The notes under the pieces were generated by a model. The model was given only the letters and a program-made list of their open reading frames with translations, did not search any database and was not told the origin of the DNA. From the NCBI GenBank assembly GCA_963678485.1, contig OY782882.1:4066339-4130338 (forward strand): 64,000 bases of DNA, in the 5' to 3' direction. Source of the stretch: Bacteroidales bacterium. Its GTDB lineage: Bacteria > Bacteroidota > Bacteroidia > Bacteroidales > CAIWKO01. Made by a program: the position numbers and the translations under genes. Shown here in pieces: positions 1,158-47,442 of the stretch (position 1 is its first letter; each line of letters starts with the position of its first letter).

Positions 1158-4100
1158 ATGAAAAACCTTAAAGGTTGCCTTAAGGCTGCCATTACCTTGT
1201 CCATTTGTATTTTTCTCTTGTTTGACGCCTCAGCTCAGGCACCACAAAGTTTCAACTATCAGGCGGTATGCCGCGATAATTTAGGAAATATTATAGCGAA
1301 TCAGTCTGTAACTCTTAGATTCAATATTTTGGATCTGGCCCCTGGTGGAACCTCGCTTTATCAAGAGACAGATGCTGTAACAACAAATTCTTATGGTTTG
1401 GTGAGTGTAGCAATTGGTGATGGAACCTGGGTTTCCGGTAATTTTCTAAGCATTCCCTGGGCAAGTGGTGAAAAGTATTTGCTCGTTGAATTGAACACTG
1501 GCTCAGGCTTTATAACAATGGGTGCCCCTCAATTATTAAGCGTTCCATATGCGATCTACGCGAATCAATCCGGAACAACTGGTTCTGCGGGACCAACCGG
1601 TCCACAGGGAATCACAGGTCCTACGGGAATTCAGGGCGTAACTGGTGTCACAGGTGTAGGATTAACGGGGGCTCAGGGAGTAACTGGACCAACGGGTGTT
1701 GGGTTAACCGGAGCACAAGGTATAACAGGACCCACGGGAGCGCAAGGTATCACGGGGCCAACCGGAATCGGGTTGACAGGTGCCCAGGGAATCACAGGTC
1801 CTACGGGACTTCAGGGCGTTACCGGTGTCACAGGTGTAGGATTAACGGGGGCTCAGGGAGTAACCGGACCAACGGGTGTTGGGTTAACAGGTGCTCAAGG
1901 TATAACAGGACCCACGGGAACGCAAGGTATCACGGGGCCAACCGGAATCGGGTTGACAGGTGCACAGGGAATCACAGGACCTACGGGGCTTCAGGGTGTA
2001 ACTGGTGTCACAGGTGTAGGATTAACGGGGGCTCAGGGAGTAACCGGACCAACGGGTGTCGGATTAGCCGGAGCGCAAGGTATAACAGGACCCACGGGCG
2101 CGCAAGGTATCACTGGGCCAACCGGAATCGGGTTGACTGGTGCTCAGGGAATCACAGGTCCTACGGGGCTTCAGGGTGTAACTGGTGTAGGATTAACGGG
2201 GGCTCAGGGCGTAACGGGACCAACGGGTGTTGGGTTAACAGGTGCACAAGGTATAACCGGACCCACGGGAGCGCAAGGTATTACGGGGCCAACGGGAATT
2301 GGGCTAACAGGCGCTCAGGGAATCACAGGTCCTACAGGACTTCAGGGTGTGACTGGTGTAGGATTAACCGGAGCGCAAGGTGCTACTGGTCCGACTGGGG
2401 CTGATGGTGCATTAAATGCATGGTCTCTTACTGGTAATACTGGTATGGTGGATGGGACAAATTTCATTGGAACCACAGATAACTCGCCATTCAATATCAG
2501 AGTAAATAATCAAAAAGCCGGCAGGGTTTCACAGACCAACGCCTCCTCATTTTTTGGCTTTGTTGCAGGAAACTCAACTACAGCCACAGGTTTAACAAAC
2601 ACGGCCATGGGGGATAGCACATTTTATACGAATTCCACTGGAGATGCCAATACGGCGATTGGTGCTAAGTCAATGCTGATGAGTGCTTCAGGAAGTTATA
2701 ATAGTGCGGTTGGATATAGCGCCATGTATTCAAGTGTGGCAACCACAGGAAATGCGGCATTTGGCGCCTATGCTTTATTACGAACAACAGGAAGTTACAA
2801 CACCGGAGTTGGATATACAGCACTTAGAAATAATACCTCAGGAACATATAATACCGCCATTGGTCTGGGAGCCCAATTCAACAATATTGCAGGAGGTTAT
2901 AATGCGGCAATTGGAGTGAATTCGCTGTATACTAATGATAGTGGATCTTATAATATTTGCATTGGGTATCGCACAATGTACTTAGTGCCTCAAGGTGATA
3001 ACAATATTGCGATTGGATCAAGAGCCCAATATAGTAGCGGAAGGATTAACAATATTATCGCTATTGGTGATTCCGCATTGTTTAGTAATAGGGCACTATA
3101 TAATACTGCATTAGGTTCAAAAGCCCTGAGTGCAAACACAACAGGAACTTCAAATACTGCAACTGGATTTCGGGCACTAGCCGGGAATACTACAGGGGCT
3201 GGAAATACTGCAAATGGCGCTCTGGCATTGTATAATAGTACCTCTGGATGGGGAAACACAGCGATGGGTAGTGGAGCCCAATTGATGAATAGTACAGGAT
3301 ATGCGAATACAGCATTAGGTTATAATGCTTTAGATGCGAATGAAGATGGAGACAATAATACTGCTGTTGGTTTTGGCGCATTAGGTAGTAACACTATTGA
3401 TGACAATACTGCAGTTGGAACATATGCTTTGTATGATAATACTTCTGGTTGGCGAAATGCAGCTCTTGGTAACAATGCCCTTTCAAATAATTCCAATGGT
3501 AGTTATAATGCGTCTTTCGGATCGAATTCATTATACAATAATAATGGAAGTTATAATGCAGCGTTGGGGGCATATGCGTTATATTCAAGTTTGGATGTTT
3601 CCGATAATGTTGCCTTAGGCTATAATACACTTTATTTTAATACTTCAGGAGATGCGAATGTTGCCATAGGGTCATTAGGCCTTTATAATAACAGAGGTGC
3701 AGGAAATGTGGCTGTTGGCAGGACTGCATTAATGGCCAATACAACTGGAAATTGTAATACAGCCATTGGTTGCGATGCGGACGTTTCAGCGGGAACATTT
3801 ACCAATGCCACTGCAATAGGGTATACGTCCACTGTTAATGCCTCTGATAAAATCAGACTTGGTGATGCAACAGTTACTGTCATTGAAGGTCAGGTAGCAT
3901 ATACATATCCAAGCGACGGGCGCTTTAAATTCAATGTAAAGGAAGAAGTAAAAGGATTGGATTTTATCCTGAAGCTTCGTCCTGTAGTCTATAATTTCGA
4001 TACCAAGAAGTTTGATAGTTTTCTGATGAAAAATATGTCGGACAGTTTGCGTAATGCACGAATGAAAGACCAGAACTACGATCGTTCCACTCAGGCTGTC

Positions 4101-4382
4101 CATACTGGTTTTATAGCACAGGAGGTTGAAAAAGCTGCATTAGACTGCGGATTTACTTTTGATGGTGTGAGCGTACCTGCCGACGAAAACGGAAATTATG
4201 GCGTGGCTTATAGTCAGTTCACAGTTCCTTTGGTGAAAGCTATTCAGGAGCAACAAGCTTTAATAGAAGCCTTGCAAAAGACGAATAATGAGCAGAAGAC
4301 AATTACAGAGCAGTTAAAGAAAGAGAATGAAGAAATGAAAGCCAGACTCGATCGTCTCGAAAAATTATTGAATGAAAAATAG
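1158..4382 (+). CDS. Secreted trimeric fibre-like protein. It has a signal peptide, a collagen-like GXT triple-helix repeat region, a Hep_Hag-like N[ST]A[IV]G repeat region and a C-terminal intramolecular-chaperone (peptidase S74) domain with a coiled-coil tail.
   Basis: The N-terminus ends ...FDASAQA. There are about 260 aa of G-[PVIA]-T-G triplets. The middle region has dozens of NTAIG/NSAVG/NVAIG 14-residue repeats. The C-terminal block contains [11 protein letters not shown] (the SDxRxK motif of S74 chaperone domains) followed by a heptad-rich tail. Confidence 0.6.
1606..2400 (+). repeat. About 4.4 tandem copies of a 180-bp (60-aa) unit inside the collagen-like region. The fourth copy has a 9-bp deletion.
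   Basis: Near-identical DNA blocks begin at about 1627, 1807, 1987 and 2167. Each encodes [60 protein letters not shown]. Confidence 0.8.
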
Positions 4383-4407
4383 ACCTTGCTGATAATTGGC
4401 GAAGACA

Positions 4408-5433
4408 TTAGAGAATATTCACTTCAGGCTCAAGCCTGACTCCGAATTTATTTTCTACCGATGCGATAATGTCATTGGCAAGTTCGAGAATTTCCCTGCC
4501 TGTTGCGTTTCCATAATTGACTAGGATTAGCGCCTGATGTGCGTGAACGCCTGCATCGCCTTTACGGAAGCCTTTCCATCCACATTGCTCAATCAACCAG
4601 CCAGCGGCAAGTTTGTAGTAACCGTTGTTTTGATTGAAAGCAACCAGTGTGCGAAATTCATCTGCAATGCGATAATATTCAAAGGCAGAAACTGTAGGGT
4701 TTTTGAAAAAACTTCCTGCATTTCCAATATCAATAGGGTCGGGGAGTTTACTGCGTCGTATCCTTGTTACCGCAGCTGCAACATCAGCAACACCTGGCGC
4801 TGTAATGCCTGCATTGGATAACTCTGTTGCAATTGCTCCATAGGATGTGTTTAGAGATGTCTGTTCTGAAAGACGGAATGTTACAGAAAGTATGATGTAC
4901 TGGCCTTTGTGGGTGGTTTTAAAGATCGATGAACGATAGCCGAACTGACATTCTTCGTTTGAGAAGGTTGTAATTATACCACTTTTTATTTCCATTGCTT
5001 CCAGCGAATGGAAGCAATCTTTTATTTCTACTCCGTATGCACCAATGTTTTGGATAGGGCTACTGCCTACATTGCCTGGGATGAACGATAAATTTTCTAA
5101 TCCACACAGACCTTGAGCAACGCAGTATTCAACAAACGTTTCCCAGTTCTCGCCCGCTTCGGCTTTTACAAGTTTATAGGGATGTTGATCGTCGATTACT
5201 TCAATTCCTTTGGTTGAAATTTTAAGCGCGCAACCTTCATAAGCTTGAGTAAAAAGCAAATTGCTTCCACCCCCAAGTAGTAGCAACGGGAGCTGCATTG
5301 CAGGAAAGTCATTCGTGACGAAATCGAAAATGTCGCTGCGTGAGTGTCCTTCAGCAAAATACCTTGCACTGACTTCCATTCCAAAAGTGTGGAAGGGTTT
5401 CAGGGAAACGTTTTCTTCAACTTTCATCCGCAC
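4408..5433 (-). CDS. murB: UDP-N-acetylenolpyruvoylglucosamine reductase (MurB)
   Basis: The protein is 341 aa. An FAD-binding Gly-rich segment LLLLGGGSNLLF is present. Length and C-terminal domain are MurB-like. Confidence 0.75.
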   Translation of the reverse strand: MRMKVEENVSLKPFHTFGMEVSARYFAEGHSRSDIFDFVTNDFPAMQLPLLLLGGGSNLLFTQAYEGCALKISTKGIEVIDDQHPYKLVKAEAGENWETFVEYCVAQGLCGLENLSFIPGNVGSSPIQNIGAYGVEIKDCFHSLEAMEIKSGIITTFSNEECQFGYRSSIFKTTHKGQYIILSVTFRLSEQTSLNTSYGAIATELSNAGITAPGVADVAAAVTRIRRSKLPDPIDIGNAGSFFKNPTVSAFEYYRIADEFRTLVAFNQNNGYYKLAAGWLIEQCGWKGFRKGDAGVHAHQALILVNYGNATGREILELANDIIASVENKFGVRLEPEVNIL

Positions 5434-5438
5434 AAATA

Positions 5439-7097
<1,659 letters not shown>

Positions 7098-35781: not shown

Positions 35782-38064
35782 TTACTTTACCAGAATTTTT
35801 TGAACTGTGTTTATGTCATTATTAAACATCCGTACATAATAAATTCCTTTTTTTACATTTGATATGTTGATATCAAGAAGTCCATTACTAGTTATGTCAG
35901 CAACTTGATTGTAGACAATGGATCCAATGCTGTTGGCAATAATTATATTACATTTTCCTGTAACACCATTGGTTTGAATGTTGAATATTCCATCGTTTGG
36001 ATTTGGCAGAATGCTGAAATGATTTGTTTCATTGTCTTCAACTCCGGTACAAAATGAATAAGTAACGTTTGCAGAACCAGTTCCACTACAGCCATTGGCG
36101 GTAACGGTACAGTTAACTGTTGTGGTACCGAGGCCAAGCATTAAACTATCAACAATCAGTGATTGTCCTGTTCCACCACCAACTGACCAAGAATAGCTGG
36201 AATAGCCGGAACCTGCATCAAGTGTGGGTGTTAAATCAGAGCAATATGTACCACCTCCGGTTATCGTCGGTGAAGGTTTAGCATATTCTGCAATCGTAAA
36301 TGGAGCAGAGGAGGCAACGCAGCCTCTAGCGCTCGTTGTTTGAACTGTGTAGGTTCCTCCTGTAGTGATTGATAAAGGATTGGTTGTGCTTCCGCCGGGA
36401 GTCCAAATAAATGCTGAACCTGGGCTAGAAGTTAAGTTAACTGCATCACCAGTGCAAACTTGAGGACTTGAAGCATTAATTGTTGGTTTATAAGAACTGC
36501 ACACTAAATAAGGACGGACAACCATAGATACAGGATATCCATATAAGCTCAAAGTATCAAATGCAGATGTGCCAATTTTTATGAAGGTTTTGTAATCTGT
36601 AAATTGATTGTCAGTATACGCGATACCAATATTTGTTGTAGTTGTTACCTGACGAACACCGACGAAGTAAGTACCGGCAGCTAATGCCAGTGGTCCTGTT
36701 GATATTGGCAGCTTAACCCATTGGGCTCCTGCGGTGGTAATGGTATAAACATTTGAAGAAGCCACTAAAGTAGTCGGAAGGCCAGAAGCAAAATTATATA
36801 CCACCATCTGAAGCTGATTTCCTACGATTGGGCCAGTCAGATAAGTCAATACATTGGTAAGGACATCAGCGCTAGTAAGGGTGTAAGTATTTCCTAATAT
36901 AATCTCCGACCCTGTCAATCCAAGCGAACCATCGATATAACCTGTGAACATGGCATCATCCCGAGCGAACAATGAATCATCCACCATAAATGCTTCCAAA
37001 ATAGTATCGTTTGATGCGTCAGGATCTGTTTCCGTCATATCAACTAAATTAACACCAATATAAAAGCCTGTATCAGCAGGAGGTGTGTAGCTGGGAGCGA
37101 CAAGAGTTGTTAGTCCGTTTGGTGCGAGTGTAGGAACAATGTTACTTGCATTAGTTTGAATTACAGAGAAATCGCTACCGTTAATCAACATATTCGTCAT
37201 AAATACATTGGTTATGTTTGCGCCTCCATGATTTGACGCGATGGATGATTGAATCAATGGAGCAGCTGTAAATTGTTTTTTAGGTATTACAGAATATTCG
37301 TTCATATACACCCGGTCAACCAGTGCTGCATCGTATTGGGGGCGGCTATATACAAGAATATCATCAACAACCCACCAATAATCATATTGCCCTGTCCAAT
37401 GAAATCTAATTTTTACATTTGCCTGATTCGCTGCATAGGCAGAAATATTTACATCAACTGCATTGGGATTAGCAGAGGACTCATCCTGAATCAATCCGGT
37501 TTCTGCTGCGTATACTTGTGTCCAAGTACTGCCGTTATTATTACTGACTTCGAGGTGAGCAGTATTGGTTGCACCGTATTTAATAAACTGTTCATTAAAC
37601 GATACGAATACATAATTAACGCCTGTACAATTTATTGTTGGCGATGTTAGAGCGCAATTCTCTGCGGTAGAGGCAGAACCCATACTATCGCTATAAACGA
37701 TTGCATAACCATTAGAAAAGGTAGCTCCAGTGGAAGTATTTAGGACAAGCCCGTATTTAAGAGCAGTTTTCGCTCTTCTAATCCAATTCATAGTATTGGT
37801 AATAGGAGCCGCTGTCCATCCAGATGCTGCAAAAGAAGTCGAAAAATCCTGTGAAAGCAGTGTCGTGTAAGCCTTTGGCGTATTAGCCTTTTGTGGAATA
37901 AGGTGACTCTTTTGGTCAGAAGTCATGATGACTTGTTGTGGACCGGATTGTTGCAAATTAATATTCTTAGAGGAGATCTGTTTTGTTTGAGCCTCAACAG
38001 TATTACTCATTGTTGAGCACAAAACCATCGCCACCGCAAGAAATAAAAAAGAAATGTGTTTCAT
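35782..38064 (-). CDS. Large secreted protein (760 aa) with a type IX secretion C-terminal sorting domain, possibly an adhesin
   Basis: There is a signal peptide. A Thr/Ser-rich beta region is present. The C-terminal sorting domain is FSILPNPNDGIFNIQ. Confidence 0.5.
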   Translation of the reverse strand: MKHISFLFLAVAMVLCSTMSNTVEAQTKQISSKNINLQQSGPQQVIMTSDQKSHLIPQKANTPKAYTTLLSQDFSTSFAASGWTAAPITNTMNWIRRAKTALKYGLVLNTSTGATFSNGYAIVYSDSMGSASTAENCALTSPTINCTGVNYVFVSFNEQFIKYGATNTAHLEVSNNNGSTWTQVYAAETGLIQDESSANPNAVDVNISAYAANQANVKIRFHWTGQYDYWWVVDDILVYSRPQYDAALVDRVYMNEYSVIPKKQFTAAPLIQSSIASNHGGANITNVFMTNMLINGSDFSVIQTNASNIVPTLAPNGLTTLVAPSYTPPADTGFYIGVNLVDMTETDPDASNDTILEAFMVDDSLFARDDAMFTGYIDGSLGLTGSEIILGNTYTLTSADVLTNVLTYLTGPIVGNQLQMVVYNFASGLPTTLVASSNVYTITTAGAQWVKLPISTGPLALAAGTYFVGVRQVTTTTNIGIAYTDNQFTDYKTFIKIGTSAFDTLSLYGYPVSMVVRPYLVCSSYKPTINASSPQVCTGDAVNLTSSPGSAFIWTPGGSTTNPLSITTGGTYTVQTTSARGCVASSAPFTIAEYAKPSPTITGGGTYCSDLTPTLDAGSGYSSYSWSVGGGTGQSLIVDSLMLGLGTTTVNCTVTANGCSGTGSANVTYSFCTGVEDNETNHFSILPNPNDGIFNIQTNGVTGKCNIIIANSIGSIVYNQVADITSNGLLDINISNVKKGIYYVRMFNNDINTVQKILVK

Positions 38065-38280
38065 GGGATATTAGATTGGTTAATAATTTAATTTTGAGGG
38101 CAAAGATAGAAAATATTGTTAAGTGCTTGTGAAATAGTAGTGATATTTATTTGAAATAATAAGAATTCAAGCGAACTGTGTTGTTAATATTTTTTGAAGA
38201 GTTTATGCAAGAAATCTTCATTTTTATAAATAATGTATAAAAAAGTGCAGTTAACCATCTTGGACAACGCCTAATTTAGT

Positions 38281-38288
38281 AGCTTTGC
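38281..38288 (+). promoter_or_regulatory. Candidate Bacteroidota -7 box (TAGCTTTG, consensus TAnnTTTG) about 17 bp upstream of the first gene of the FHA/kinase cluster
   Basis: The motif is present and a TTG lies about 20 bp upstream. No other support. Confidence 0.25.
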
Positions 38289-38304
38289 ATAAACTTTTAT
38301 AGCG

Positions 38305-38868
38305 ATGGGTGAGTTTAAGTTATGTAGCAATGGACATTATTACGACGACGCGCTCGCGGAATGCCCCTTTTGCCCTAAAATTTCCAAAAACATACAAAAC
38401 ATGGATCTTGACAAAACTAAGATCGACGGCGGTGATAAGCCACTGGACGATAAAACACAAATCTTTGGGGGGAGCAATCAGCCCAACCTCAACAAAACGC
38501 AAATATTCAGTGGAGATAGTCCGCAAGATATGCCGTGTTTTAACGAACAGAAAAACAATGCCGGGCGAAAGCTTACGGGTTGGCTGGTTTCGTTTACCAT
38601 GGACCCCCTGGGCGTTGATTTTCGCCTTTATGAAGGCAGGAATATCATTGGTTCCGATCCCCAGTGCGACATTGTGATTCCTAACGACAGTTCCGTTTCG
38701 GGAAAGCACCTTACGATTTTATTCCGCATGGGCGTGTTTAAATTCAAGGACGAGTTCAGTACCAACGGATCTTTTGTCAATGAGGTCTTTTGTGAAGAAG
38801 GAACGCTCAACGATGGCGATATCCTGAAAATTGGCAGTACTGTTTTTAAATTCCGCACCGCGGGCTGA
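38305..38868 (+). CDS. FHA-domain protein with an N-terminal Cys-containing (zinc-ribbon-like) segment
   Basis: The C-terminal FHA has GR...SGKH...NGSFVN. A KTQIF[GS]G linker repeat is present. The N-terminal segment is CSNGHYYDDALAECPFC. Confidence 0.7.
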   Translation: MGEFKLCSNGHYYDDALAECPFCPKISKNIQNMDLDKTKIDGGDKPLDDKTQIFGGSNQPNLNKTQIFSGDSPQDMPCFNEQKNNAGRKLTGWLVSFTMDPLGVDFRLYEGRNIIGSDPQCDIVIPNDSSVSGKHLTILFRMGVFKFKDEFSTNGSFVNEVFCEEGTLNDGDILKIGSTVFKFRTAG

Positions 38869-38888
38869 TTGTAGCACATTAAATTATT

Positions 38889-40367
38889 ATGAATATGAAA
38901 AAGTTGTTCAGCTTAATCAGCATTTTGGTGCTGACAGCAGGTTTTACGGCCTTTGGCCAAACGTTCAGCATTATAAATACTGACCCATCCAACTATCCCC
39001 AAATTGTGGTAAATGTGGATGTGCAGGATAAGGAAGATGCCCTTCAGGCGGATTTCAAAGTTACCGAAGATGGCAAAGACGTGCCTTTCACTTTCAGCAA
39101 GGATGCCGGAACTCAAGGGGGTGGCGGAAAAGCCATTTGCTTTTTGATTGAAGCTTCTGGTTATACGTATGGTGCACCCATTGAAAATTTCAAAAAAGCT
39201 ATCGCTGCCGCCATTCAGGCTTGTGGCGAAAACGATAAAATTAATGTGTGCTATTTTGGGAAAGCTAATTCTGACGGGCGTTCACTGAATACCATAAGCG
39301 CAGAATTTACTTCAGATAAAAGTACCCTGGTAAGTGAACTGAAAAGCAAAGTGACCGCAGTGCGCGATACCAATCGTGTTGCTGATGTTTTCAAAAGCAT
39401 TTACGAATGCCTCGACTTCATTAATTCTAAGCAGGATCTGCCATCTAACAAGGTTCTTATTGTAATCTCTGCTGCTATTAACAACAGTAAATCTCCTATA
39501 AAAGCTGAGGATTGCATCGATCAGGCGAATAAGTTCAGTATTCCCGTTTATACAATCACCTATAAAACCAACAATCGTTACGCTGCCGATAATTTTGTCC
39601 GCATCAGCGATAAAACTGAAGGTAAAAGTCAAAGTGCAAAAACATCTGATGAGATTAGCAGCGCCATTAACGATTTTGTGAATCGTGTTGATGAAAATGC
39701 TGTGTCTCCTTCGAATTCATATACTATTGAGTTTACCACCTCACAAAACAACGATCAAAACCTTTTTGATGTAAGCTATAAAGGCGCTAAACAATCGGGC
39801 AGTTTTACAATTCCTGAAGATAAAGTATCTTTTTGGAGTAAATATATGATTTGGATTATCATCATTGCTGCCATTTTAGTTGTTGTAATTACGCTGGTTG
39901 TTTGGTTCCTCATGCAAGGCAAAAAGAAGAAATCAGGCGAGAATGATCGTTTGCGTACTATGGAAGAACGTAATATTCAACTACAGCAGCAGATTAATCA
40001 ATCGAAGGATGTTAAAACTCAGATGACACCGCAGGAGCCTCAGAAATTTGACCTGAAACGCACTCAAATCGGTGGTGGTGGTGGAACTCCTCTGTTGATG
40101 GTGAGTTCCGGCGATTTTTCCAAGAACTTTCCACTGAACAAACCACAACTCACTATTGGACGTAATAGTGGTAATGATATCGTAATTCCTGAAAAAACAG
40201 TTTCCGGAAACCACGCAACATTAATCAATGAGAATGGTAATTGGTTTTTGCTTGATAATAACAGCACGAATGGAACATTTGTCAACGGAACCAAAATCAA
40301 CAAACAACGCATTGCTCCAACTGACGTGATTAAATTGGGCGCAGCGTTTCTTAAAATTCAATTCTAA
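38889..40367 (+). CDS. Membrane protein with a signal peptide, an extracytoplasmic vWA-like domain, one TM helix, a coiled coil and a cytoplasmic C-terminal FHA domain
   Basis: The signal peptide ends ...TAFGQ. The region IEASGYT...VLIVISAAINNS...IPVYTITYK is consistent with a vWA fold. The TM helix is IWIIIIAAILVVVITLVVWFLM. The FHA domain is GRNSGNDIVIP...SGNHATL...NGTFVNG. Confidence 0.65.
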   Translation: MNMKKLFSLISILVLTAGFTAFGQTFSIINTDPSNYPQIVVNVDVQDKEDALQADFKVTEDGKDVPFTFSKDAGTQGGGGKAICFLIEASGYTYGAPIENFKKAIAAAIQACGENDKINVCYFGKANSDGRSLNTISAEFTSDKSTLVSELKSKVTAVRDTNRVADVFKSIYECLDFINSKQDLPSNKVLIVISAAINNSKSPIKAEDCIDQANKFSIPVYTITYKTNNRYAADNFVRISDKTEGKSQSAKTSDEISSAINDFVNRVDENAVSPSNSYTIEFTTSQNNDQNLFDVSYKGAKQSGSFTIPEDKVSFWSKYMIWIIIIAAILVVVITLVVWFLMQGKKKKSGENDRLRTMEERNIQLQQQINQSKDVKTQMTPQEPQKFDLKRTQIGGGGGTPLLMVSSGDFSKNFPLNKPQLTIGRNSGNDIVIPEKTVSGNHATLINENGNWFLLDNNSTNGTFVNGTKINKQRIAPTDVIKLGAAFLKIQF

Positions 40368-40413
40368 GAAATATCATATATAAGAATTGACAAACCATTA
40401 TAAATAATCTGTC

Positions 40414-41760
40414 ATGGTTGACACCCGGAAATTAAAAAACTTCGAATTTGGCAATGCCACGGATGTTGGTCGTGTGCGTGAGCAAAACGAGGATTATCTT
40501 GGCTATTTTGAATGTATCAATGGTCATGTATTCGTTGTATGCGATGGCATGGGCGGACACGTCGGCGGAGCGACTGCATCGCGATTAGCTGTTGACAGCG
40601 TGCGCGAATTCCTCGAGAATCACTATTTTGATCTGCCAACTGATGCTTTAAAAGCGGCCATTGAAAGCGCCAATGAGGCTGTTTATCTTCGTGCTGTTGA
40701 AAATCCACAGTTGTCGGGAATGGGCACCACCATTGTCATGGCTATAGTTCGTGATGATAAAGTGTGGTATGCCCACGTTGGTGATAGTCGCATTTACATG
40801 CATTCTGGTGGAAAGCTAATTAAGCTAACGCGCGATCATAGCTTTGTACAAACCCTGGTTGATCAGGGATTGCTGAAAGAAGAAGAAATGGAATCCCATC
40901 CTCGTCGCAACGAAATTCTTGCTGCGCTTGGTGTGCGTCACGACGTTGAGGTTACTTTATGTCAGAGTCCTGCAAGACCTTCCAATGGAGATATTCTTCT
41001 ATTGTGCACCGATGGACTTAACAGCATGATTAGTGATCCCATTACAGAAGCCGTGCTTAATGAGGAAATCTCGGTTCAGCATAAGGCGCTTAAGCTAATG
41101 CAGCTGGCCAATGAGGCGGGTGGTTACGATAATATTACTGTTCAGCTTGTACATTTTTATAATGTTGTCAACAAGAAATCTGATTTTATCCCAGCTTCGA
41201 AAATGCCGATGAATAATGGCACAAACAAGGAAAATGCACAGAAACCAAAACTGACAAAGAAAATGAAAAGGAACATTTTGTATGCAATCGTTGGATTGGC
41301 GCTGGTCGCTCTATGTTATTTTATTTGGGATATGTTTGGTAGTGGAGGCACTCCAGAGCCATTGGGCAGTGGGAATGCTAAAGATACTGTGATTTCTGAA
41401 CAACCGAGAGATACAGTGCAGCCGCAGACTCAGCAGGAAAATGCCGTTGCAAAGCCTGGAAAGGATACACTCTGGGTTAAGTATACCATCAAGAGTGGTG
41501 ATGTTCTGGGCAAGGTTTCTTCAAAATTTAATATTAAGATTGCTATCCTCAAGAAGAAGAATAGCTTGAAAACCGATGTTGTTCGCGTTGGTGATATTAT
41601 TCAGGTACCTGTTAAAGCTGAACATACCGTTGCTGCTGGTGAAACCATCGATGTTTTAGCTAAGAAATATAGTTCGGATAAAGATGCAATTCTTGCTGCA
41701 AACAGTGTTAAGAATGCCGCAGATCTTAAAGCAGGAATGAAAATCTACATACCTTTTTAA
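40414..41760 (+). CDS. PP2C-family Ser/Thr phosphatase with a TM helix and two extracytoplasmic LysM domains
   Basis: PP2C motifs are present: FVVCDGMGGH, YAHVGDSRIY and LLCTDGL. The TM helix is ILYAIVGLALVALCYFIW. There are two LysM repeats (YTIKSGDVLGKVS...; HTVAAGETIDVLAKKY...). Confidence 0.8.
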   Translation: MVDTRKLKNFEFGNATDVGRVREQNEDYLGYFECINGHVFVVCDGMGGHVGGATASRLAVDSVREFLENHYFDLPTDALKAAIESANEAVYLRAVENPQLSGMGTTIVMAIVRDDKVWYAHVGDSRIYMHSGGKLIKLTRDHSFVQTLVDQGLLKEEEMESHPRRNEILAALGVRHDVEVTLCQSPARPSNGDILLLCTDGLNSMISDPITEAVLNEEISVQHKALKLMQLANEAGGYDNITVQLVHFYNVVNKKSDFIPASKMPMNNGTNKENAQKPKLTKKMKRNILYAIVGLALVALCYFIWDMFGSGGTPEPLGSGNAKDTVISEQPRDTVQPQTQQENAVAKPGKDTLWVKYTIKSGDVLGKVSSKFNIKIAILKKKNSLKTDVVRVGDIIQVPVKAEHTVAAGETIDVLAKKYSSDKDAILAANSVKNAADLKAGMKIYIPF

Positions 41761-41841
41761 GAAGAGATAGTGTTATCGCGCAATAGTTCGTCGGAATGAG
41801 AAAGGCCGCACCAGTGCGCCGCGAATAAAGGTAAAGAGTTT

Positions 41842-43617
41842 ATGATCGGAACCCAAATATTGAACTACCGCATCGAACGCCTTATTGGAGAAGGTGGCAT
41901 GGGGAACGTGTATCTGGGTGTGCATACACATATTGGGCGTAAGGTGGCCATCAAGGCGCTGAATCCCGGATTGGCCAAGAATCCTGAGATACGCGAGCGT
42001 TTTAAAAATGAAGCTTCCATGTTATCGCAGCTTCATCATCCGAACATCGTGCAATTGTACGATTATGTCGAGATGGAGCAAGGCGTTTTTTTGGTAATGG
42101 AATTCGCCGATGGTCAACCGCTGGATGAATATATTGAAAAGGTAACAGGTCCCATCCCTGAAGATAAGGCCTTACCAATGTTTGCAAAAATATTGGATGG
42201 TGTGGCCTATGCGCATAAAAAAAATGTGGTTCATCGGGATATTAAACCTTCCAATATTATTGTCAGCCCTGAAGGTAAGGTGAAGATTCTTGATTTTGGT
42301 ATTGCTAAAATTATCGGCGATAGTAATCATAAACTCACCAAAACAGGCACAAAGCTGGGCACTGTGCTCTATATGAGCCCGGAGCAAGTGAAAGGACAAA
42401 CACTTGATTTGCGAACCGACATCTATTCACTTGGAATTACGTTGTTTGAAATGCTAACGGGTAAATGTCCCTTCGATAGCAACAGCACAGAATACGAGGT
42501 TTACAAAAAAATTGTTGAAGAGCCAATGACCGACGCACGCACTCTGTATCCTGCTGTGAGTGCGCATTGCGCAAATGTTATCTTTAAGGCGACAAGCAAG
42601 GATGCCAATGATCGTTTTCAGGATTGTGCTGAATTTAAACAGTATTTACTGAACCCGCCAGTTGTTGCTGAAGCTACATCAACAAAGGACAAAAAGAAAA
42701 AACAGAAAGCTGCTGCAGTGTCCGCTGTTGGAGCAACGGCAACAGGAGTTTCAGCAAAGCGGCCACGGAAAAGGAATCTGTTGTTTTGGAATATTTTCAT
42801 GGCGTGTTTCCTTCTTACAGCATTGTGCATTACTACATACAAGCTTTTGTATGTAACTGAAGATCGTTACGTCATTGCATCCAAATTATATCTGAGAAGT
42901 TCAAAGAGCGTGGCAAGTAATGATAACGCAATCAAAGTAGTTGAATTCGGCGGACAGGTTCAAATTATTGATGAAGACAGTAATCCTGATGATGATGGAT
43001 TAACCTGGGCTAAAGTCCGCGATGCTTCGGGCAAAGAGGGATATGTTGCATTGAATTACCTTGGAACAAGAAAAGAATATGAGCAGATTCGTGGGATGTT
43101 TCTAGGCGAATCACAGGATCAAACTGTTGTTCAATATAAACTTGCTTTGCGCGATTACTTTGCTGAACAAGGATATTTCGATAGTGACCTTGATCCTAAA
43201 TGGAAGTTGAGTCCGGAAGGTGCTGGTTCAATCTACAATTGTTTTACTATAGGCGATTTTAATAATGACGGATTGGACGATTACGCTTGTGTAATCAGCA
43301 ATAAATATTACGAGGGCTGGCGATTGCTCGTTTTTGTAGCGAAAGGACATACTGAAACATCGCTTATTCTTGATGAAGAGATTTTTTATCAGGGATTAGT
43401 TTTAATTATGAAAAAGGGAGAGAAGATCAGCACTGGACGAACAAAGAACGTGATGGAATATGACGATGATGGTAATGTAGTGCAAACTTCAAAAAAAATC
43501 TATGAGTCGTTAGGCTCTGATGCATTAATATTGAAAGATAAATCCAATGGAAAGCGCCAGTTGTATGTGTTTAACCTGGGCGAAGGAAGCTTTAATCAAC
43601 CCATAGAAATGAAATGA
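41842..43617 (+). CDS. Hanks-type Ser/Thr protein kinase with a TM helix and extracytoplasmic SH3b-like and additional domains
   Basis: Kinase motifs are present: GEGGMGNVY, VAIK, HRDIKPSN, DFGIAK and SPE. The TM helix is LLFWNIFMACFLLTALCI. The SH3b-like region is VVEFGGQVQIIDE...GYVALNYL. Confidence 0.85.
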   Translation: MIGTQILNYRIERLIGEGGMGNVYLGVHTHIGRKVAIKALNPGLAKNPEIRERFKNEASMLSQLHHPNIVQLYDYVEMEQGVFLVMEFADGQPLDEYIEKVTGPIPEDKALPMFAKILDGVAYAHKKNVVHRDIKPSNIIVSPEGKVKILDFGIAKIIGDSNHKLTKTGTKLGTVLYMSPEQVKGQTLDLRTDIYSLGITLFEMLTGKCPFDSNSTEYEVYKKIVEEPMTDARTLYPAVSAHCANVIFKATSKDANDRFQDCAEFKQYLLNPPVVAEATSTKDKKKKQKAAAVSAVGATATGVSAKRPRKRNLLFWNIFMACFLLTALCITTYKLLYVTEDRYVIASKLYLRSSKSVASNDNAIKVVEFGGQVQIIDEDSNPDDDGLTWAKVRDASGKEGYVALNYLGTRKEYEQIRGMFLGESQDQTVVQYKLALRDYFAEQGYFDSDLDPKWKLSPEGAGSIYNCFTIGDFNNDGLDDYACVISNKYYEGWRLLVFVAKGHTETSLILDEEIFYQGLVLIMKKGEKISTGRTKNVMEYDDDGNVVQTSKKIYESLGSDALILKDKSNGKRQLYVFNLGEGSFNQPIEMK

Positions 43618-44909
43618 GAACACTCACAATAGGCAGGAGCAATTCGAATGATGTTGTTATCAAAGATACCTTTGTATCTGGATCGCATTGTTCGATAACG
43701 ATGGATGATAAAGGTGTGTTCTATTTGCAGGACCTCGGTTCAAGCAATGGCACATTTGTCAATGGAAAGCGCGTGCAGCAGGCATGGTTAAGAAGCAATG
43801 ATATTGTTAAGCTTGGTGAAACCGTAATTCCATGGCAGGAGTATTTTCAGGCCCCGAACGATAGTCATCTTAATGGAAATATAATCCGCAAGGTAACCAT
43901 GGGCCGTGCCCCAGATAACGAAATTGTTGTTGGTGATGATTTTGTTTCTTCGCATCATGCGGAGATTCTTATCACTGATCAAAATGAATATCTTGTTCAG
44001 GATTTAAATAGCACCAATGGTACTTTTGTTAATGACCGCAGAGTGATATCTTCTTTGCTGGTTCCCGGCGATCGTCTGCGACTTGCTCGTATTACGCTGG
44101 AATGGACCATGTTCTTCAGTGCACCTGCGTACAGTGAAACTCATACTGAAAAAAAATCCGCAAAGAGCTGGATTATTCCAACGCTGATTGCGCTAGGTGT
44201 TGTACTTGTTATAATCCTTGGCATCATGGGCATCATGAATATGAAAGGCAAGAGTACAAATGAAGAGGATCATTTGAATTCGAACGATACCACACTATCT
44301 GCCGGTAGTTTCAGTGATATGGTCAAAAGAGTTGAACAATCGGTTTTTTTGATTGAAAGCTATGATCGATACGGAAACAGCATGCAGGGTACGGGATTCT
44401 TTATTGCTGAAAATGGTATGGGTATCACCAATTATCATGTGGTTGAGGGTGGTACCAAATGGGTAATAAAGACAGTTGATGGCGCTTCCTATGAAGTCGA
44501 TGATTTTGTGGAACGGAACAAGAAATACGATTATGCCGTTTTCACGATTAATAATTCCGGCGATTATTTCAGGCCATTGCGCCGAAGCCTGAATACTCCA
44601 TCAAAAGGTGAGGAAATCTTCGTTATCGGAAATCCTCAGGGCATCGAAAGTACGGTCACCAAAGGTATTGTTTCAGGCCTGAAAGGCGGAACAGAAGACG
44701 ATATTATGAACGGAACATTCTCCGAAGGAAGTAATTTTGTTCAGATTGATGTTGCCATTTCCCATGGTAGCAGCGGTAGTCCGGTGCTAAATATGAAAGG
44801 TGAGGTGGTTGGAATTGCAACGCTCTCGTTTCAGGAATCCAATTGTATCAATTGTAACTTCGCTGTAAATATTCAATTGGTAAAACAGTATGTTGAGCCA
44901 AAACGATAG
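43614..44909 (+). CDS. Tandem-FHA, single-TM, trypsin-like (S1/HtrA-type) serine protease
   Basis: There are two FHA domains (GRSNSNDVVI...SGSH...NGTFVNG; GRAPDNEIVV...SSHH...NGTFVND). The TM helix is IIPTLIALGVVLVIILGIMGI. Protease residues are TNYHVV, DYAVF and the catalytic-Ser loop HGSSGSPV. The start overlaps the kinase stop (ATGA). Confidence 0.8.
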   Translation: MRTLTIGRSNSNDVVIKDTFVSGSHCSITMDDKGVFYLQDLGSSNGTFVNGKRVQQAWLRSNDIVKLGETVIPWQEYFQAPNDSHLNGNIIRKVTMGRAPDNEIVVGDDFVSSHHAEILITDQNEYLVQDLNSTNGTFVNDRRVISSLLVPGDRLRLARITLEWTMFFSAPAYSETHTEKKSAKSWIIPTLIALGVVLVIILGIMGIMNMKGKSTNEEDHLNSNDTTLSAGSFSDMVKRVEQSVFLIESYDRYGNSMQGTGFFIAENGMGITNYHVVEGGTKWVIKTVDGASYEVDDFVERNKKYDYAVFTINNSGDYFRPLRRSLNTPSKGEEIFVIGNPQGIESTVTKGIVSGLKGGTEDDIMNGTFSEGSNFVQIDVAISHGSSGSPVLNMKGEVVGIATLSFQESNCINCNFAVNIQLVKQYVEPKR

Positions 44910-45041
44910 CTGGAGAATTTGTAGATTGGTAAATTAGTTTTTACAGCACTTCTCACATTGAAAACCTTTTCAAATAACGTCTTGTTTCTTAGAGCAAAGG
45001 CCCTATAAGGGGTTATTGGGTTTACAAGTTAATTGGGTTTT
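44836..45041 (+). repeat. Left copy of the 206-211 bp target-site duplication flanking the IS
   Basis: It is identical to 46721-46926, possibly extended by 5 bp (TCAGG) on the left. It contains the last ~74 nt of the protease CDS plus 132 bp downstream. Confidence 0.85.
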
Positions 45042-46720
45042 CCTGACTTTGACACTTTAAAAATCACGAATTTGTAACTACCACAAATACATTCACATAT
45101 AAATTTTGCGCCACCCGTTTGGGTGACGCAAGAACAAAATGACTTATTTTAGCGTATGTTCATACGTAAAAAGAAAAATAGGTCAGGAACCACGAGTGTA
45201 GTCGTTGTAGATAAAACTCATGGGAAATATATCGAATTAAAAACAATTGGGGTAAGTAGTGATAGTTCCCAGATCGATAATCTGATAAAACAAGCAAAAC
45301 AATGGATAGATGCTCAATGTGGTATCCAAGATGTTTTTTGTATAAAAGCCAAGGAGCAAGAAGAAAAACAGGTAACTGAACACTTGTTGTCAAACATTGA
45401 AAACATCCTAATCAATGGCACGCAGTTGATTTTGGATAAGGTATTCCATCTTATTGGTTTCGATAAAATATATGATGACATATTGCGTCATTTGGTTGTT
45501 GCCCGTTTAAGCCAACCGATGAGCAAGTCGGCTACGGTAGATTATCTAAAATCATATTTTGATGAAGATGTGCAGCTATACAAGATATATCGTTATTTGG
45601 ACAAACTATACAATACCCAACAAGAGCGGATACAGCAAATCAGTGTTGAGCACACACGGAAGATATTGGGTGGTAAAATCGGCTTAATGTTTTATGATGT
45701 AACCACACTTTATTTTGAGTCTGATTATGGTGATGAACTAAGAGAAAATGGGTTTTCTAAAGACGGAAAGCACAGTCAGCCACAAGTAGTGCTGGGTTTA
45801 TTAGTAAGTAAAGGGGGCTATCCCCTTTCTTACTCTATTTTCAACGGCTCTCAATACGAGGGGCGAACGATGTTGCCCATAATTGACGATTTTGTTCGAC
45901 GTTTTAATTTGGATGACTTTGTAGTGGTTGCCGATTCGGGTTTGATGAGTAAATCAAACATATCATTGTTGGAATCCGGGGGGTACAAATACATTATCGG
46001 GGCAAGAATAAAAAACGAGACGGAAGAAATCAAGCAATGGATTTTATCTTTAGATAAATGCGATAATGAATTTCACGAACTAAAAAAGGAGAATACCCGG
46101 TTAATTGTAGGATATTCTTCAACCAGGGCAAAGAAAGACAAATACAATAGGGAAAAAGGCGTTAAACGCCTTCAGAAAGCCTATAAGAGTGGTAATATAA
46201 CGAAAGAAAATATCAACAAACGGGGTTATAATAAATTCTTGGAAATTTCGGATAATGTAAAAGTTTGCATTAATCAACATAAGATTGAAGAAGATGCTCA
46301 ATGGGACGGGCTAAAAGGATATATAACCAATACAACACTTTCGGCACAAGATGTTTATGAGCAATACAATGGCTTGTGGGTGGTCGAGAATGCTTTCAGG
46401 GTAACAAAAGGAACACTTGAAATGCGTCCGATGTTTCACTTTACACCACGCAGAATAGAAGCACATGTATGCATATGTTTTATAGCTTATAAGGTATATA
46501 AGGAGTTGGATCGGATACTAAAAACCAACAACATAAACCTGAGTGTAGATAAAGTACTTAGCATCGCCAAAACCATAACTACTGTCAAAGTCAGATTGCC
46601 ACTCAGCGATACTATCATGTCAAAGACAATGCTTGTCACGACAAGGCACAAATCTATTGCTATGCTATTTGATGAAAATTTCTGGAAAAATTTTTAGGGT
46701 GACGCATAGTCAAAGTCAGG
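45042..46720 (+). mobile_element. IS1634-family (IS4-related) insertion sequence with a 12-bp perfect terminal inverted repeat CCTGACTTTGAC and a very long target-site duplication
   Basis: The 12-bp inverted repeat lies at 45042-45053 and 46709-46720. It carries a single 513-aa transposase ORF. Flanking direct repeats of about 206-211 bp are present. Confidence 0.75.
45156..46697 (+). CDS. IS1634-family DDE transposase
   Basis: The ORF is 513 aa. The N-terminus MFIRKKKNRSGTTSVVVVDK and overall architecture are typical of IS1634-type transposases. An RNase-H-like DDE region is present. Confidence 0.7.
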   Translation: MFIRKKKNRSGTTSVVVVDKTHGKYIELKTIGVSSDSSQIDNLIKQAKQWIDAQCGIQDVFCIKAKEQEEKQVTEHLLSNIENILINGTQLILDKVFHLIGFDKIYDDILRHLVVARLSQPMSKSATVDYLKSYFDEDVQLYKIYRYLDKLYNTQQERIQQISVEHTRKILGGKIGLMFYDVTTLYFESDYGDELRENGFSKDGKHSQPQVVLGLLVSKGGYPLSYSIFNGSQYEGRTMLPIIDDFVRRFNLDDFVVVADSGLMSKSNISLLESGGYKYIIGARIKNETEEIKQWILSLDKCDNEFHELKKENTRLIVGYSSTRAKKDKYNREKGVKRLQKAYKSGNITKENINKRGYNKFLEISDNVKVCINQHKIEEDAQWDGLKGYITNTTLSAQDVYEQYNGLWVVENAFRVTKGTLEMRPMFHFTPRRIEAHVCICFIAYKVYKELDRILKTNNINLSVDKVLSIAKTITTVKVRLPLSDTIMSKTMLVTTRHKSIAMLFDENFWKNF

Positions 46721-46926
46721 AATCCAATTGTATCAATTGTAACTTCGCTGTAAATATTCAATTGGTAAAACAGTATGTTGAGCCAAAACGATAGCTGGAG
46801 AATTTGTAGATTGGTAAATTAGTTTTTACAGCACTTCTCACATTGAAAACCTTTTCAAATAACGTCTTGTTTCTTAGAGCAAAGGCCCTATAAGGGGTTA
46901 TTGGGTTTACAAGTTAATTGGGTTTT
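46721..46926 (+). repeat. Right copy of the IS target-site duplication
   Basis: It is identical to 44836-45041. Confidence 0.85.
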
Positions 46927-47016: not shown

Positions 47017-47442
47017 CTATTTTGAGTTGAAATCCACTCCTTCAAAATCGGATATCTTCTGCTTCCATTCCTCGGGTATTGGCTGGCTTTCCTGTTTCCA
47101 AACGTTATAACAAACCAAAACTGCAAGGCAGCTTGAATAAAGGATATCGCTCTGTGTATCGCACAACTGATGTTCAAGTGTCATGCTTTTATTGCCGATT
47201 TTTATGACTCTTGTTTTAACAACAATCTGTGTACGCATGAAGACAGGAAGAATGTAATCTATTTTTACTGAAGCACCCACTACGCCTAGTTCGTTGAAGT
47301 CCATTTCAGGCAGAACCTTATCGAAATAATCCACTTTGCCAAGATCGTAATAATTCTGATATTGAGTGTTTGAAACATGTCCTAAAGAGTCTACATCGCT
47401 AAAGCGCAGTTGAACCGGGATTATACTTTTGAATACTTCCAT
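47017..47442 (-). CDS. Hotdog-fold acyl-CoA thioesterase (4HBT/YbgC-like)
   Basis: The ORF is 141 aa. The N-terminal RFSDVDSLGHVSNTQY segment is typical of 4HBT thioesterases. Confidence 0.55.
   Translation of the reverse strand: MEVFKSIIPVQLRFSDVDSLGHVSNTQYQNYYDLGKVDYFDKVLPEMDFNELGVVGASVKIDYILPVFMRTQIVVKTRVIKIGNKSMTLEHQLCDTQSDILYSSCLAVLVCYNVWKQESQPIPEEWKQKISDFEGVDFNSK

What the first reader, a model, noticed from the sequence alone, without database searches (positions are those of the whole stretch)
44836..46926. IS1634-family insertion with a ~206-211 bp target-site duplication copying the 3' end of the protease gene
A 1679-bp element with a 12-bp perfect terminal inverted repeat (CCTGACTTTGAC) and one 513-aa transposase is flanked by two identical ~206-bp direct repeats. 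The left repeat includes the final ~74 nt of the FHA-protease CDS. The upstream gene therefore stays intact, and an orphan gene tail lies after the IS. Very long, variable target duplications are a known hallmark of IS1634-family elements. The perfect identity of the two copies implies a recent insertion. The insertion lies directly 3' of the signalling operon and could affect its terminator or downstream expression.
Basis: seen in the sequence. Interest (0 to 1): 0.55.

Follow-up and report, generated by a model that had tools for sequence, protein, structure and literature searches.

The report
IS1634-family insertion with 206-bp target duplication
A 1.7-kb jumping gene of the IS1634 family sits just after a protease gene and copied 206 bp of its landing site when it inserted, which is unusual for mobile elements in general but already known for this family.

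Summary
A 1679-bp insertion sequence lies at 45042-46720. It has perfect 12-bp terminal inverted repeats (CCTGACTTTGAC) and one 513-aa DDE transposase. The transposase scores 371.7 bits against the curated IS1634-family model (cutoff 100). Two identical direct repeats flank the element: 206 bp between the joins, or 211 bp counting a 5-nt TCAGG overlap with the right end. The left copy keeps the last 74 nt of the FHA-protease gene, so that gene stays intact.

The repeat was made by the insertion. A second copy, identical over all 1679 bp and at another locus, carries a different 518-bp duplication. Nineteen measurable insertions of this element and its Bacteroidota relatives (62-100% transposase identity) have duplications of 31-563 bp abutting the conserved ends. 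Short-read contigs from an independent assembly break exactly at both repeat borders.

Both ends join next to 5'-A-R-A (A at +1 in 66 of 78 flanks). That fits two equivalent strand transfers placed a variable distance apart, followed by repair synthesis. No isogenic empty site was found.

Long duplications are known for only some family members. A terminator-like hairpin lies inside the duplicated segment and is kept. This is a new member of a known kind, of modest interest.

The parts
43614..44909 (+). FHA-FHA-TM-trypsin-like serine protease gene, last gene of a Ser/Thr-kinase signalling operon. Its final 74 nt lie inside the left repeat and the gene is intact.
   Evidence: ORF of 431 aa. Pfam FHA x2 plus Trypsin_2. 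NCBIfam FhaB and HtrA-like hits. A 100%-identical protein, P0001, is on record on a 4.86-Mb contig.
44836..45041 (.). Left copy of the 206-bp target-site duplication. Identity extends to 44831 because the target's TCAGG equals the element's last 5 nt.
   Evidence: 211/211 identity to 46716-46926. Junctions read. Length of 206 computed from the element ends.
44999..45014 (+). Terminator-like hairpin GGCCCTATAAGGGGTT followed by a T-rich tail, inside the duplicated segment. A second copy lies at 46884-46899.
   Evidence: Consensus scan only.
45042..46720 (+). IS1634-family insertion sequence, 1679 bp.
   Evidence: Borders set by the inverted repeats and by where the direct repeats stop. 1679/1679 identical to a second copy in L001 at 2887-4565.
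45042..45053 (+). Left terminal inverted repeat CCTGACTTTGAC.
   Evidence: CCTGACTT is invariant in 38 related copies.
45106..45131 (+). 11-bp-stem hairpin just upstream of the transposase start. Its 3' arm is the clade-invariant motif GGGTGACGCAA.
   Evidence: L006 keeps the stem through paired changes.
45156..46697 (+). Transposase gene, 513 aa. Catalytic residues D181, D260 and E411; motif Y404-x2-L-x3-E411-x6-K418.
   Evidence: ORF. NF033559 IS1634 family, 371.7 bits against cutoff 100. Pfam DDE_Tnp_1. Motif columns conserved in all 14 usable relatives.
46697..46706 (+). Second copy of the GGGTGACGCA motif, in direct orientation, about 14 nt inside the right end.
   Evidence: family D6. 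Conserved in the right ends of relatives.
46709..46720 (+). Right terminal inverted repeat GTCAAAGTCAGG.
   Evidence: AAGTCAGG is invariant in related copies.
46721..46926 (.). Right copy of the 206-bp target-site duplication. 46721-46794 is the orphan 3' tail of the protease gene (24 codons plus stop).
47017..47442 (-). Convergent downstream gene, a 4HBT-type thioesterase, undisturbed by the insertion.
   Evidence: The exact protein is on record in an independent short-read contig.

Best explanation
This is a recent insertion of an intact, probably active IS1634-family insertion sequence between two convergent genes.

Inferred mechanism. The transposase joined the 3'-OH of the right end to the top strand at 44835/44836. 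It joined the 3'-OH of the left end to the bottom strand at 45041/45042 of the original target. The two strand transfers were therefore staggered by 206 nt instead of the usual few nucleotides. The two strands of the intervening 206 bp separated, one staying with each end. Host repair or strand-displacement synthesis from the free target 3'-OH ends then filled both gaps. The result is DR-IS-DR.

Both joins show the same local preference, 5'-A-R-A immediately outside ...GTCAGG, while their spacing varies from 31 to 563 bp across this clade. The most likely reading is that each end chooses its target phosphodiester largely on its own, rather than within one fixed-geometry target-capture complex.

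Consequences. A gene hit by only one of the two joins survives, as the protease gene does here. An orphan gene fragment is left on the other side. The 206-bp repeats could later allow scarless loss of the element by homologous recombination.

Shown: the anatomy, family membership, variable long duplications at independent sites, and the flank preference. Inferred: the order and independence of the two strand transfers, the repair step, and current activity.
For: Anatomy.
- 211/211 direct repeat and 12/12 inverted repeats.

Family.
- NF033559 at 371.7 bits against cutoff 100.
- DDE triad and a Y-x2-L-x3-E-x6-K motif lacking the arginine, as described for the family (PMC2266710).
- Ends fit the published C-----YT consensus.

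The duplication is made by insertion.
- A second copy, identical over 1679 bp, at a different locus (L001) carries a 518/519-bp repeat of that locus.
- 19 insertions with measurable repeats give 31, 31, 33, 45, 49, 51, 72, 74, 99, 129, 153, 173, 177, 185, 206, 239, 263, 518 and 563 bp. All abut the element ends.
- All 6 copies in two complete chromosomes and all 4 in two Pedobacter isolates have such repeats.
- A 44%-identical Persicobacter copy has 415 bp. Actinobacterial family members have 58, 96 and 148 bp.

Independent assembly support.
- Short-read contigs L087 and L084 end 30 nt into the repeat at its left and right borders.
- L003 spans the junction from repeat into the element's left end.

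Flank preference.
- A at +1 in 66/78 flanks (p = 5.5e-23) and purine at +2 in 71/78, equal at both ends.
- The same bases are present in the distal repeat copies (31/38), so they come from the target.

Recency.
- The two repeats and the two element copies are identical.
Against: No isogenic empty site was recovered, so the pre-insertion sequence is reconstructed and not observed. The protease's exact protein could not be located in the position index.

About 18 of 39 related copies show no flanking repeat. Most of these are in short-read MAG contigs where chimeric joins or short flanks are likely. A few are in isolate scaffolds (L067, L076).

The mechanism itself has never been demonstrated for any family member. 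The 2008 review states that no model exists.

The 5-nt TCAGG overlap here, and similar end-like target sequences in L090, L023 and L008, are not predicted by a plain staggered-cut model.

No helical periodicity was found in repeat lengths.
Confidence: 0.88

Rival explanations
1. The long repeat is not made by two transposase-catalysed joins. One end integrates normally. The other junction is then made by a host process such as template switching, replication-fork repair or microhomology-mediated joining, at a variable distance. That would give variable-length duplications.
For: The window's right junction has a 5-nt microhomology (TCAGG) between target and element end. L090 has 7/9 similarity at the same junction. 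L023 and L008 also have end-like target sequence. The literature offers no accepted mechanism.
Against: Most junctions have 0-1 nt of overlap. Both flanks show the same strong A-R-A preference, 33/39 at each end. That is expected of one enzyme acting at both ends and not of a host repair junction at one of them. Both ends are always complete to the last base.
Confidence: 0.08
2. The 206-bp repeat existed before the insertion, as a tandem or dispersed duplication of the gene's 3' end. The element simply landed between the copies, or the repeats arose later by recombination.
For: No isogenic empty site was found to exclude it directly.
Against: Both repeat copies abut the element ends to the base, with no separate short duplication. 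The sequence occurs only twice in the window. An identical copy elsewhere has a different, equally exact 518-bp repeat, and about 20 further independent insertions show the same architecture. Relatives L085 and L089 have a single protease 3' end and no element.
Confidence: 0.02
3. The duplication is an assembly artefact, with a repeat-resolution error placing the same flank on both sides of the element.
For: The related long-read contig L001 has a 1-nt indel between its two repeat copies in a G run, typical of long-read error. Assembly quality is therefore imperfect.
Against: Independent short-read contigs from run ERR12015701 stop exactly 30 nt (k-1) inside each border of the repeat. One contig spans from the repeat's end into the element's left end, while another spans from the repeat's end into unique right flank. 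The repeat's end therefore has two successors in the reads. The same architecture occurs in many unrelated assemblies, including isolate genomes and complete plasmids.
Confidence: 0.02

Closest known systems
IS1634 of Mycoplasma mycoides subsp. mycoides SC (Vilei et al. 1999, cited in PMC2266710)
   Same: Same IS family by curated HMM. Single DDE transposase. It creates long direct repeats of variable length on insertion; the review gives 8-514 bp for IS1634 and IS1549 together.
   Different: Different phylum: Mycoplasmatota against Bacteroidota. The primary paper is not held, so details of its ends and target preference could not be compared.
IS1549 of Mycobacterium smegmatis (Plikaytis et al. 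1998, cited in PMC2266710)
   Same: Same family, which was originally named after it. Forms long direct repeats on insertion. Actinobacterial family members align with this transposase from residue 2 over 86-93% of its length at 27-29% identity. They share CCTGA(C/G)TT-type ends, and three of them carry 58-, 96- and 148-bp repeats.
   Different: Only about 27-29% protein identity to the actinobacterial group. That group also includes a copy with a 5-bp repeat (RHA1 pRHL1). Its flanks do not show the A-R-A preference.
Short-duplication IS1634-family members ISPfe2 (Paracoccus) and ISGka5 (Geobacillus)
   Same: Same family. Related ends, CCCGAGTT in Geobacillus and alphaproteobacterial plasmid copies.
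   Different: They were experimentally shown to make 6-bp duplications (PMC3281130; PMC8024623). Plasmid copies of these subgroups examined here have 4-5-bp repeats and are 1.9 kb long. This element makes 206 bp and its identical second copy 518 bp.
[quoted passage not shown] 2010, PMC2853133)
   Same: Inserted DNA is flanked by long (over 30 bp), variable direct repeats of target sequence that can include gene 3' ends.
   Different: Those units have no transposase or inverted repeats, and their mechanism is unknown. Here a DDE transposase with defined ends is present.

Membership tests
IS1634 family | Transposase matches the curated family model above its cutoff | tested here: met
   NF033559 scores 371.7 bits against cutoff 100, covering residues 27-504 and model positions 5-478 of 483.
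IS1634 family | DDE transposase with a long second-D-to-E spacer and a YREK motif that lacks the arginine (PMC2266710) | tested here: met
   D181, D260 and E411 give a 151-residue D-to-E spacer. The motif is Y404-x2-L407-x3-E411-x6-K418. The D, E and K columns printed are conserved in all 14 usable relatives; one of the 15 translations was truncated. Definition read.
IS1634 family | Element length 1500-2000 bp with a single transposase ORF | tested here: met
   1679 bp with one 513-aa ORF. Size range from the table in PMC2266710.
IS1634 family | Terminal inverted repeats fitting the family consensus C-----YT | tested here: met
   CCTGACTT at both ends. Invariant in 38 related copies. CC(T/C)GA(C/G)TT in six of the seven actinobacterial, Geobacillus and alphaproteobacterial copies printed; Sphingobium has CCCAAGTT.
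IS1634 family | Target duplication either 5-6 bp AT-rich (family norm) or long and variable (IS1634, IS1549) | tested here: met
   206 bp here, 518 bp at the second identical copy, and 31-563 bp in clade relatives. This is the long-variable mode and not the 5-6-bp norm.
IS1634 family | Demonstrated transposition | not testable with these tools
   Only indirect support: two 100%-identical copies at different loci, an intact ORF and ends, and identical repeats.
IS4 family sensu stricto | Complete Y-x2-R-x3-E-x6-K motif, roughly 10-bp duplications, and an IS4 family HMM match | tested here: not met
   Leucine replaces the arginine. The duplication is 206 bp. IS4 models score 30.8 and 23.6 bits against cutoffs of 115 and 250.

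The most novel reading that the evidence does not exclude
Long-stagger insertion is not a quirk of two elements. It is the regular mode of a whole IS1634-family clade that is widespread in Bacteroidota, covering Bacteroidales, Pedobacter and, at 44% identity, Persicobacter. It is shared with an actinobacterial branch. In the Bacteroidota clade both ends choose a 5'-A-R-A site independently, never closer than about 31 bp and up to about 560 bp apart. This would point to two uncoupled single-end strand transfers, an integration geometry not described for other DDE transposases. It would also supply a natural data set and candidate elements for solving how these duplications arise, which the 2008 review still listed as open.
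Probability: 0.4. Interest if true: 0.55.

Novelty: new member of a known kind. Interest (0 to 1): 0.33.

Why it matters
For this genome it is an ordinary, recent insertion that leaves both neighbouring genes intact, so its local consequences are small.

More generally, it adds a well-defined and probably active Bacteroidota element to the few IS1634-family members known to duplicate hundreds of base pairs of target. About 20 independent natural insertions come with it.

These insertions show that both joins share one local sequence preference while their spacing is free. That constrains any mechanism for long target duplications, which has not been worked out.

Long duplications also have three practical effects:
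- they protect genes hit by only one join;
- they create orphan gene fragments that confuse annotation;
- they break short-read assemblies at the repeat borders.

Tried and rejected
- Isogenic empty site: not found. The exact-protein look-up of the protease failed twice, although the protein is in the collection on a 4.86-Mb contig. The metagenome scan gave only a 77%-identical relative, L085, without the element and with the thioesterase inverted. The 82%-identical P0002 locus, L089, likewise has the protease directly followed by the thioesterase. These show a single protease 3' end in relatives but are too diverged to serve as the empty site.
- One look-up was wasted on a mis-set minus-strand coordinate and corrected.
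- Helical phasing of duplication lengths: Rayleigh p = 0.56, 0.72 and 0.025 for periods 10, 10.5 and 11 with n = 19. This is not convincing.
- General preference on the other side of the nick (positions -1 to -10): none seen.
- A known RNA in the duplicated intergenic segment or in the element: no Rfam match at E <= 0.1.
- Primary papers on IS1634 and IS1549: not held. They are cited only through PMC2266710.
- L056's apparent 4-nt overlap was rejected as evidence because it sits at a contig start, probably a wrap-around of the same structure.
- L026's repeat length is ambiguous because the element sits in a tandem-repeat region. It was excluded from the length list.
- Sigma-70-type promoter hits were not interpreted. 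They were fewer than in shuffles, and Bacteroidota use a different promoter consensus.
Full report
**Observation**

Window 44831-45041 and 46716-46926 are identical over 211 nt. A 33-mer from the repeat occurs exactly twice in the 64-kb window and in none of 100 shuffles.

A 1679-bp segment (45042-46720) lies between the two copies. It is bounded by perfect 12-bp inverted repeats, CCTGACTTTGAC and GTCAAAGTCAGG. It contains one ORF of 513 aa at 45156-46697.

The repeat's first five bases (TCAGG) are also the last five of the element. The duplicated target is therefore 206 bp (44836-45041 / 46721-46926) with a 5-nt ambiguity.

The upstream gene (43614-44909) encodes two FHA domains and a trypsin-like protease, and follows a Ser/Thr kinase gene. 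It ends 74 nt into the left repeat and is intact. The same 74 nt recur as an orphan tail at 46721-46794.

**What the element is**

- The transposase scores 371.7 bits against NCBIfam NF033559, "IS1634 family transposase" (cutoff 100). It falls far below cutoff for the IS4, IS701 and IS1380 models. It also carries Pfam DDE_Tnp_1.
- The catalytic residues are D181, D260 and E411, with a 151-residue D-to-E spacer. The motif is Y404-x2-L-x3-E411-x6-K418, so the arginine of the IS4 "YREK" signature is missing. These columns are conserved in all 14 usable relatives; one translation was truncated.
- De Palmenaer et al. (PMC2266710) use exactly this variant, long spacers, a length of 1500-2000 bp and ends of the form C-----YT to define the IS1634 family. 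CCTGACTT fits that consensus.
- At 90% identity the transposase has no cluster mates among about 15 billion proteins. It is seen on three contigs, the longest 4.86 Mb. The nearest relatives in one-genome-per-species GTDB are 83-84% identical. It is therefore a new element of a known family.

**Is the repeat made by the insertion?**

Four lines of evidence say yes.

1. *A second identical copy.* An identical transposase is encoded on ENA contig ERZ21831069:contig_6 (L001). The whole 1679 bp is identical there, but the flanks differ. That copy is bracketed by its own 518/519-bp direct repeat of local sequence, the 5' part of an exonuclease-like gene. The two repeat copies differ only by one G in a G-run.

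2. *Relatives.* A scan of 185,579 species genomes returned 80 loci with transposases mostly 59-84% identical, most of them labelled Bacteroidota.
   - Comparing upstream with downstream flanks, and then fixing the element ends, gave repeats that abut the ends to the base in 19 insertions: 31, 31, 33, 45, 49, 51, 72, 74, 99, 129, 153, 173, 177, 185, 206 (this one), 239, 263, 518 and 563 bp.
   - All six copies in two complete chromosomes (OW818690.1, CP058702.1) carry such repeats, as do all four in two Pedobacter isolates.
   - About 18 copies show none. Most of these are in short-read MAG contigs, where joins across a multicopy element are unreliable or one flank is very short.

3. *Independent short-read assembly.* In run ERR12015701, contig L087 (kinase and protease) stops at window 44860. 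Contig L084 (thioesterase side) stops at 46897. These points are 30 nt inside the left and right borders of the repeat. Contig L003 runs from the last 30 nt of the repeat straight into the element. The end of the repeat therefore has two successors in the reads, and its start is an assembly break point, as the DR-IS-DR structure predicts.

4. *Diverged relatives of the locus.* L085 (protease 77% identical) and L089 (82%) have one protease 3' end, no element, and the thioesterase next.

An isogenic empty site was not found.

**How it most likely works**

Across 39 copies the ends CCTGACTT and AAGTCAGG are invariant. The base immediately outside each end, read outward on the transferred strand, shows a strong bias:

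| Position | Observation | Background | p |
|---|---|---|---|
| +1 | A in 66 of 78 flanks (33/39 at each end) | 30.5% A | 5.5e-23 |
| +2 | purine in 71 of 78 | 50% | 1e-14 |
| +3 | A in 44 of 78 | 30.5% A | 1.8e-06 |

These bases are also present in the repeat copy that does not touch that end (31 of 38). They are therefore target sequence and not part of the element. This also explains the 14/14 inverted repeat that includes TT/AA in the window.

The simplest reading is as follows. The 3'-OH of each end is joined to a 5'-A-R-A site on opposite strands, with a 5' stagger that is free to vary between about 31 and 560 nt. The strands of the intervening duplex part. Repair or strand-displacement synthesis then fills both gaps and duplicates the segment. 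The identical local preference at both joins, with unconstrained spacing and no helical phasing, argues that the two ends pick their sites largely independently.

This part is inference. The literature states that no model has been proposed.

An unexplained detail concerns target sequence resembling the element's own end just inside the nick. The window target has TCAGG. A Persicobacter copy has 7 of 9 matching bases. Two other relatives show similar resemblance. There is no such trend overall.

**Comparison with what is known**

- The published family norm is a 5-6-bp AT-rich duplication. ISPfe2 and ISGka5 were shown experimentally to give 6 bp.
- Long, variable repeats (8-514 bp) were reported for IS1634 of Mycoplasma mycoides and IS1549 of Mycobacterium smegmatis.
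- In complete plasmids, a Persicobacter relative (44% identity) has a 415-bp repeat.
- Actinobacterial family members (27-29% identity, aligned from residue 2) have 58, 96 and 148 bp. One has 5 bp.
- Geobacillus and Sphingobium copies have 4-5 bp.
- The long mode is thus shared by the Bacteroidota clade and an actinobacterial branch, and is absent from the subgroups known to give short repeats.

**Local consequences**

One join fell inside the protease gene, but the duplication restores it. The only terminator-like hairpin after its stop (44999-45014) lies within the duplicated segment and stays upstream of the element. The downstream thioesterase is convergent. An effect on the operon's terminator or on downstream expression is therefore unlikely. 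No known RNA family lies in the region.

**Verdict**

This is a new member of a known kind. Interest is modest. The clade-wide data on duplication length and nick-site preference are the only part that goes beyond the expected.

Noticed in passing
window 47017-47442 (- strand); L085 5517-5936 (+); L089 1677-2099 (+): The thioesterase gene downstream of the protease is inverted in this genome compared with two relatives, where it follows the protease on the same strand. No second copy of the element is nearby to explain the inversion.
   Followed up: partly
window 45106-45131 and 46697-46706: The motif GGGTGACGCA(A) occurs in direct orientation near both ends of the element. The left copy is the 3' arm of an 11-bp hairpin just upstream of the transposase start. 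The motif is invariant across the clade, and L006 keeps the stem through paired changes. It may be a transposase-binding or translational-control site.
   Followed up: partly
window 46584-46595 (- strand match): A near copy of the terminal repeat (TCTGACTTTGAC, one mismatch) lies 125 bp inside the right end, within the transposase coding sequence. A similar internal site is seen in L010.
   Followed up: no
window 44831-44835 / 46716-46720; L090 2471-2479; L023; L008 1835-3518: Some targets resemble the element's own end next to the nick. The window has TCAGG at 5/5. Persicobacter has GAAAACACA against GAAAACAGG. L023 has GTCAAAG. In L008 a second copy is inserted 3 nt inside the first copy's right end. 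There is no general preference at these positions.
   Followed up: partly
window about 36600-44909 (seen via L087 1715-8268): The upstream operon encodes two FHA proteins, a PP2C phosphatase with LysM, a Ser/Thr kinase with an SH3 domain, and the FHA-FHA-protease. It is conserved in related Bacteroidota.
   Followed up: no
window 44842-44869 and 46727-46754 (- strand): A sigma-70-like TTTACA-16-TACAAT match with an upstream TG lies inside both repeat copies. The right-hand copy would read antisense into the transposase gene. This is a consensus match only, and Bacteroidota promoters differ.
   Followed up: no
L001 4561-4993: At the second copy of the element, the 518-bp duplication leaves an orphan 5' fragment of an exonuclease-like gene. 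The fragment is called as two short ORFs because of a 1-nt G-run difference between the repeats, probably a long-read error.
   Followed up: partly
L026 (OW818690.1) 1645-5461: One relative sits inside a tandem-repeat region with a period of about 86-87 bp, so its duplication length is ambiguous: 60, 443, 530 or 616 bp.
   Followed up: no
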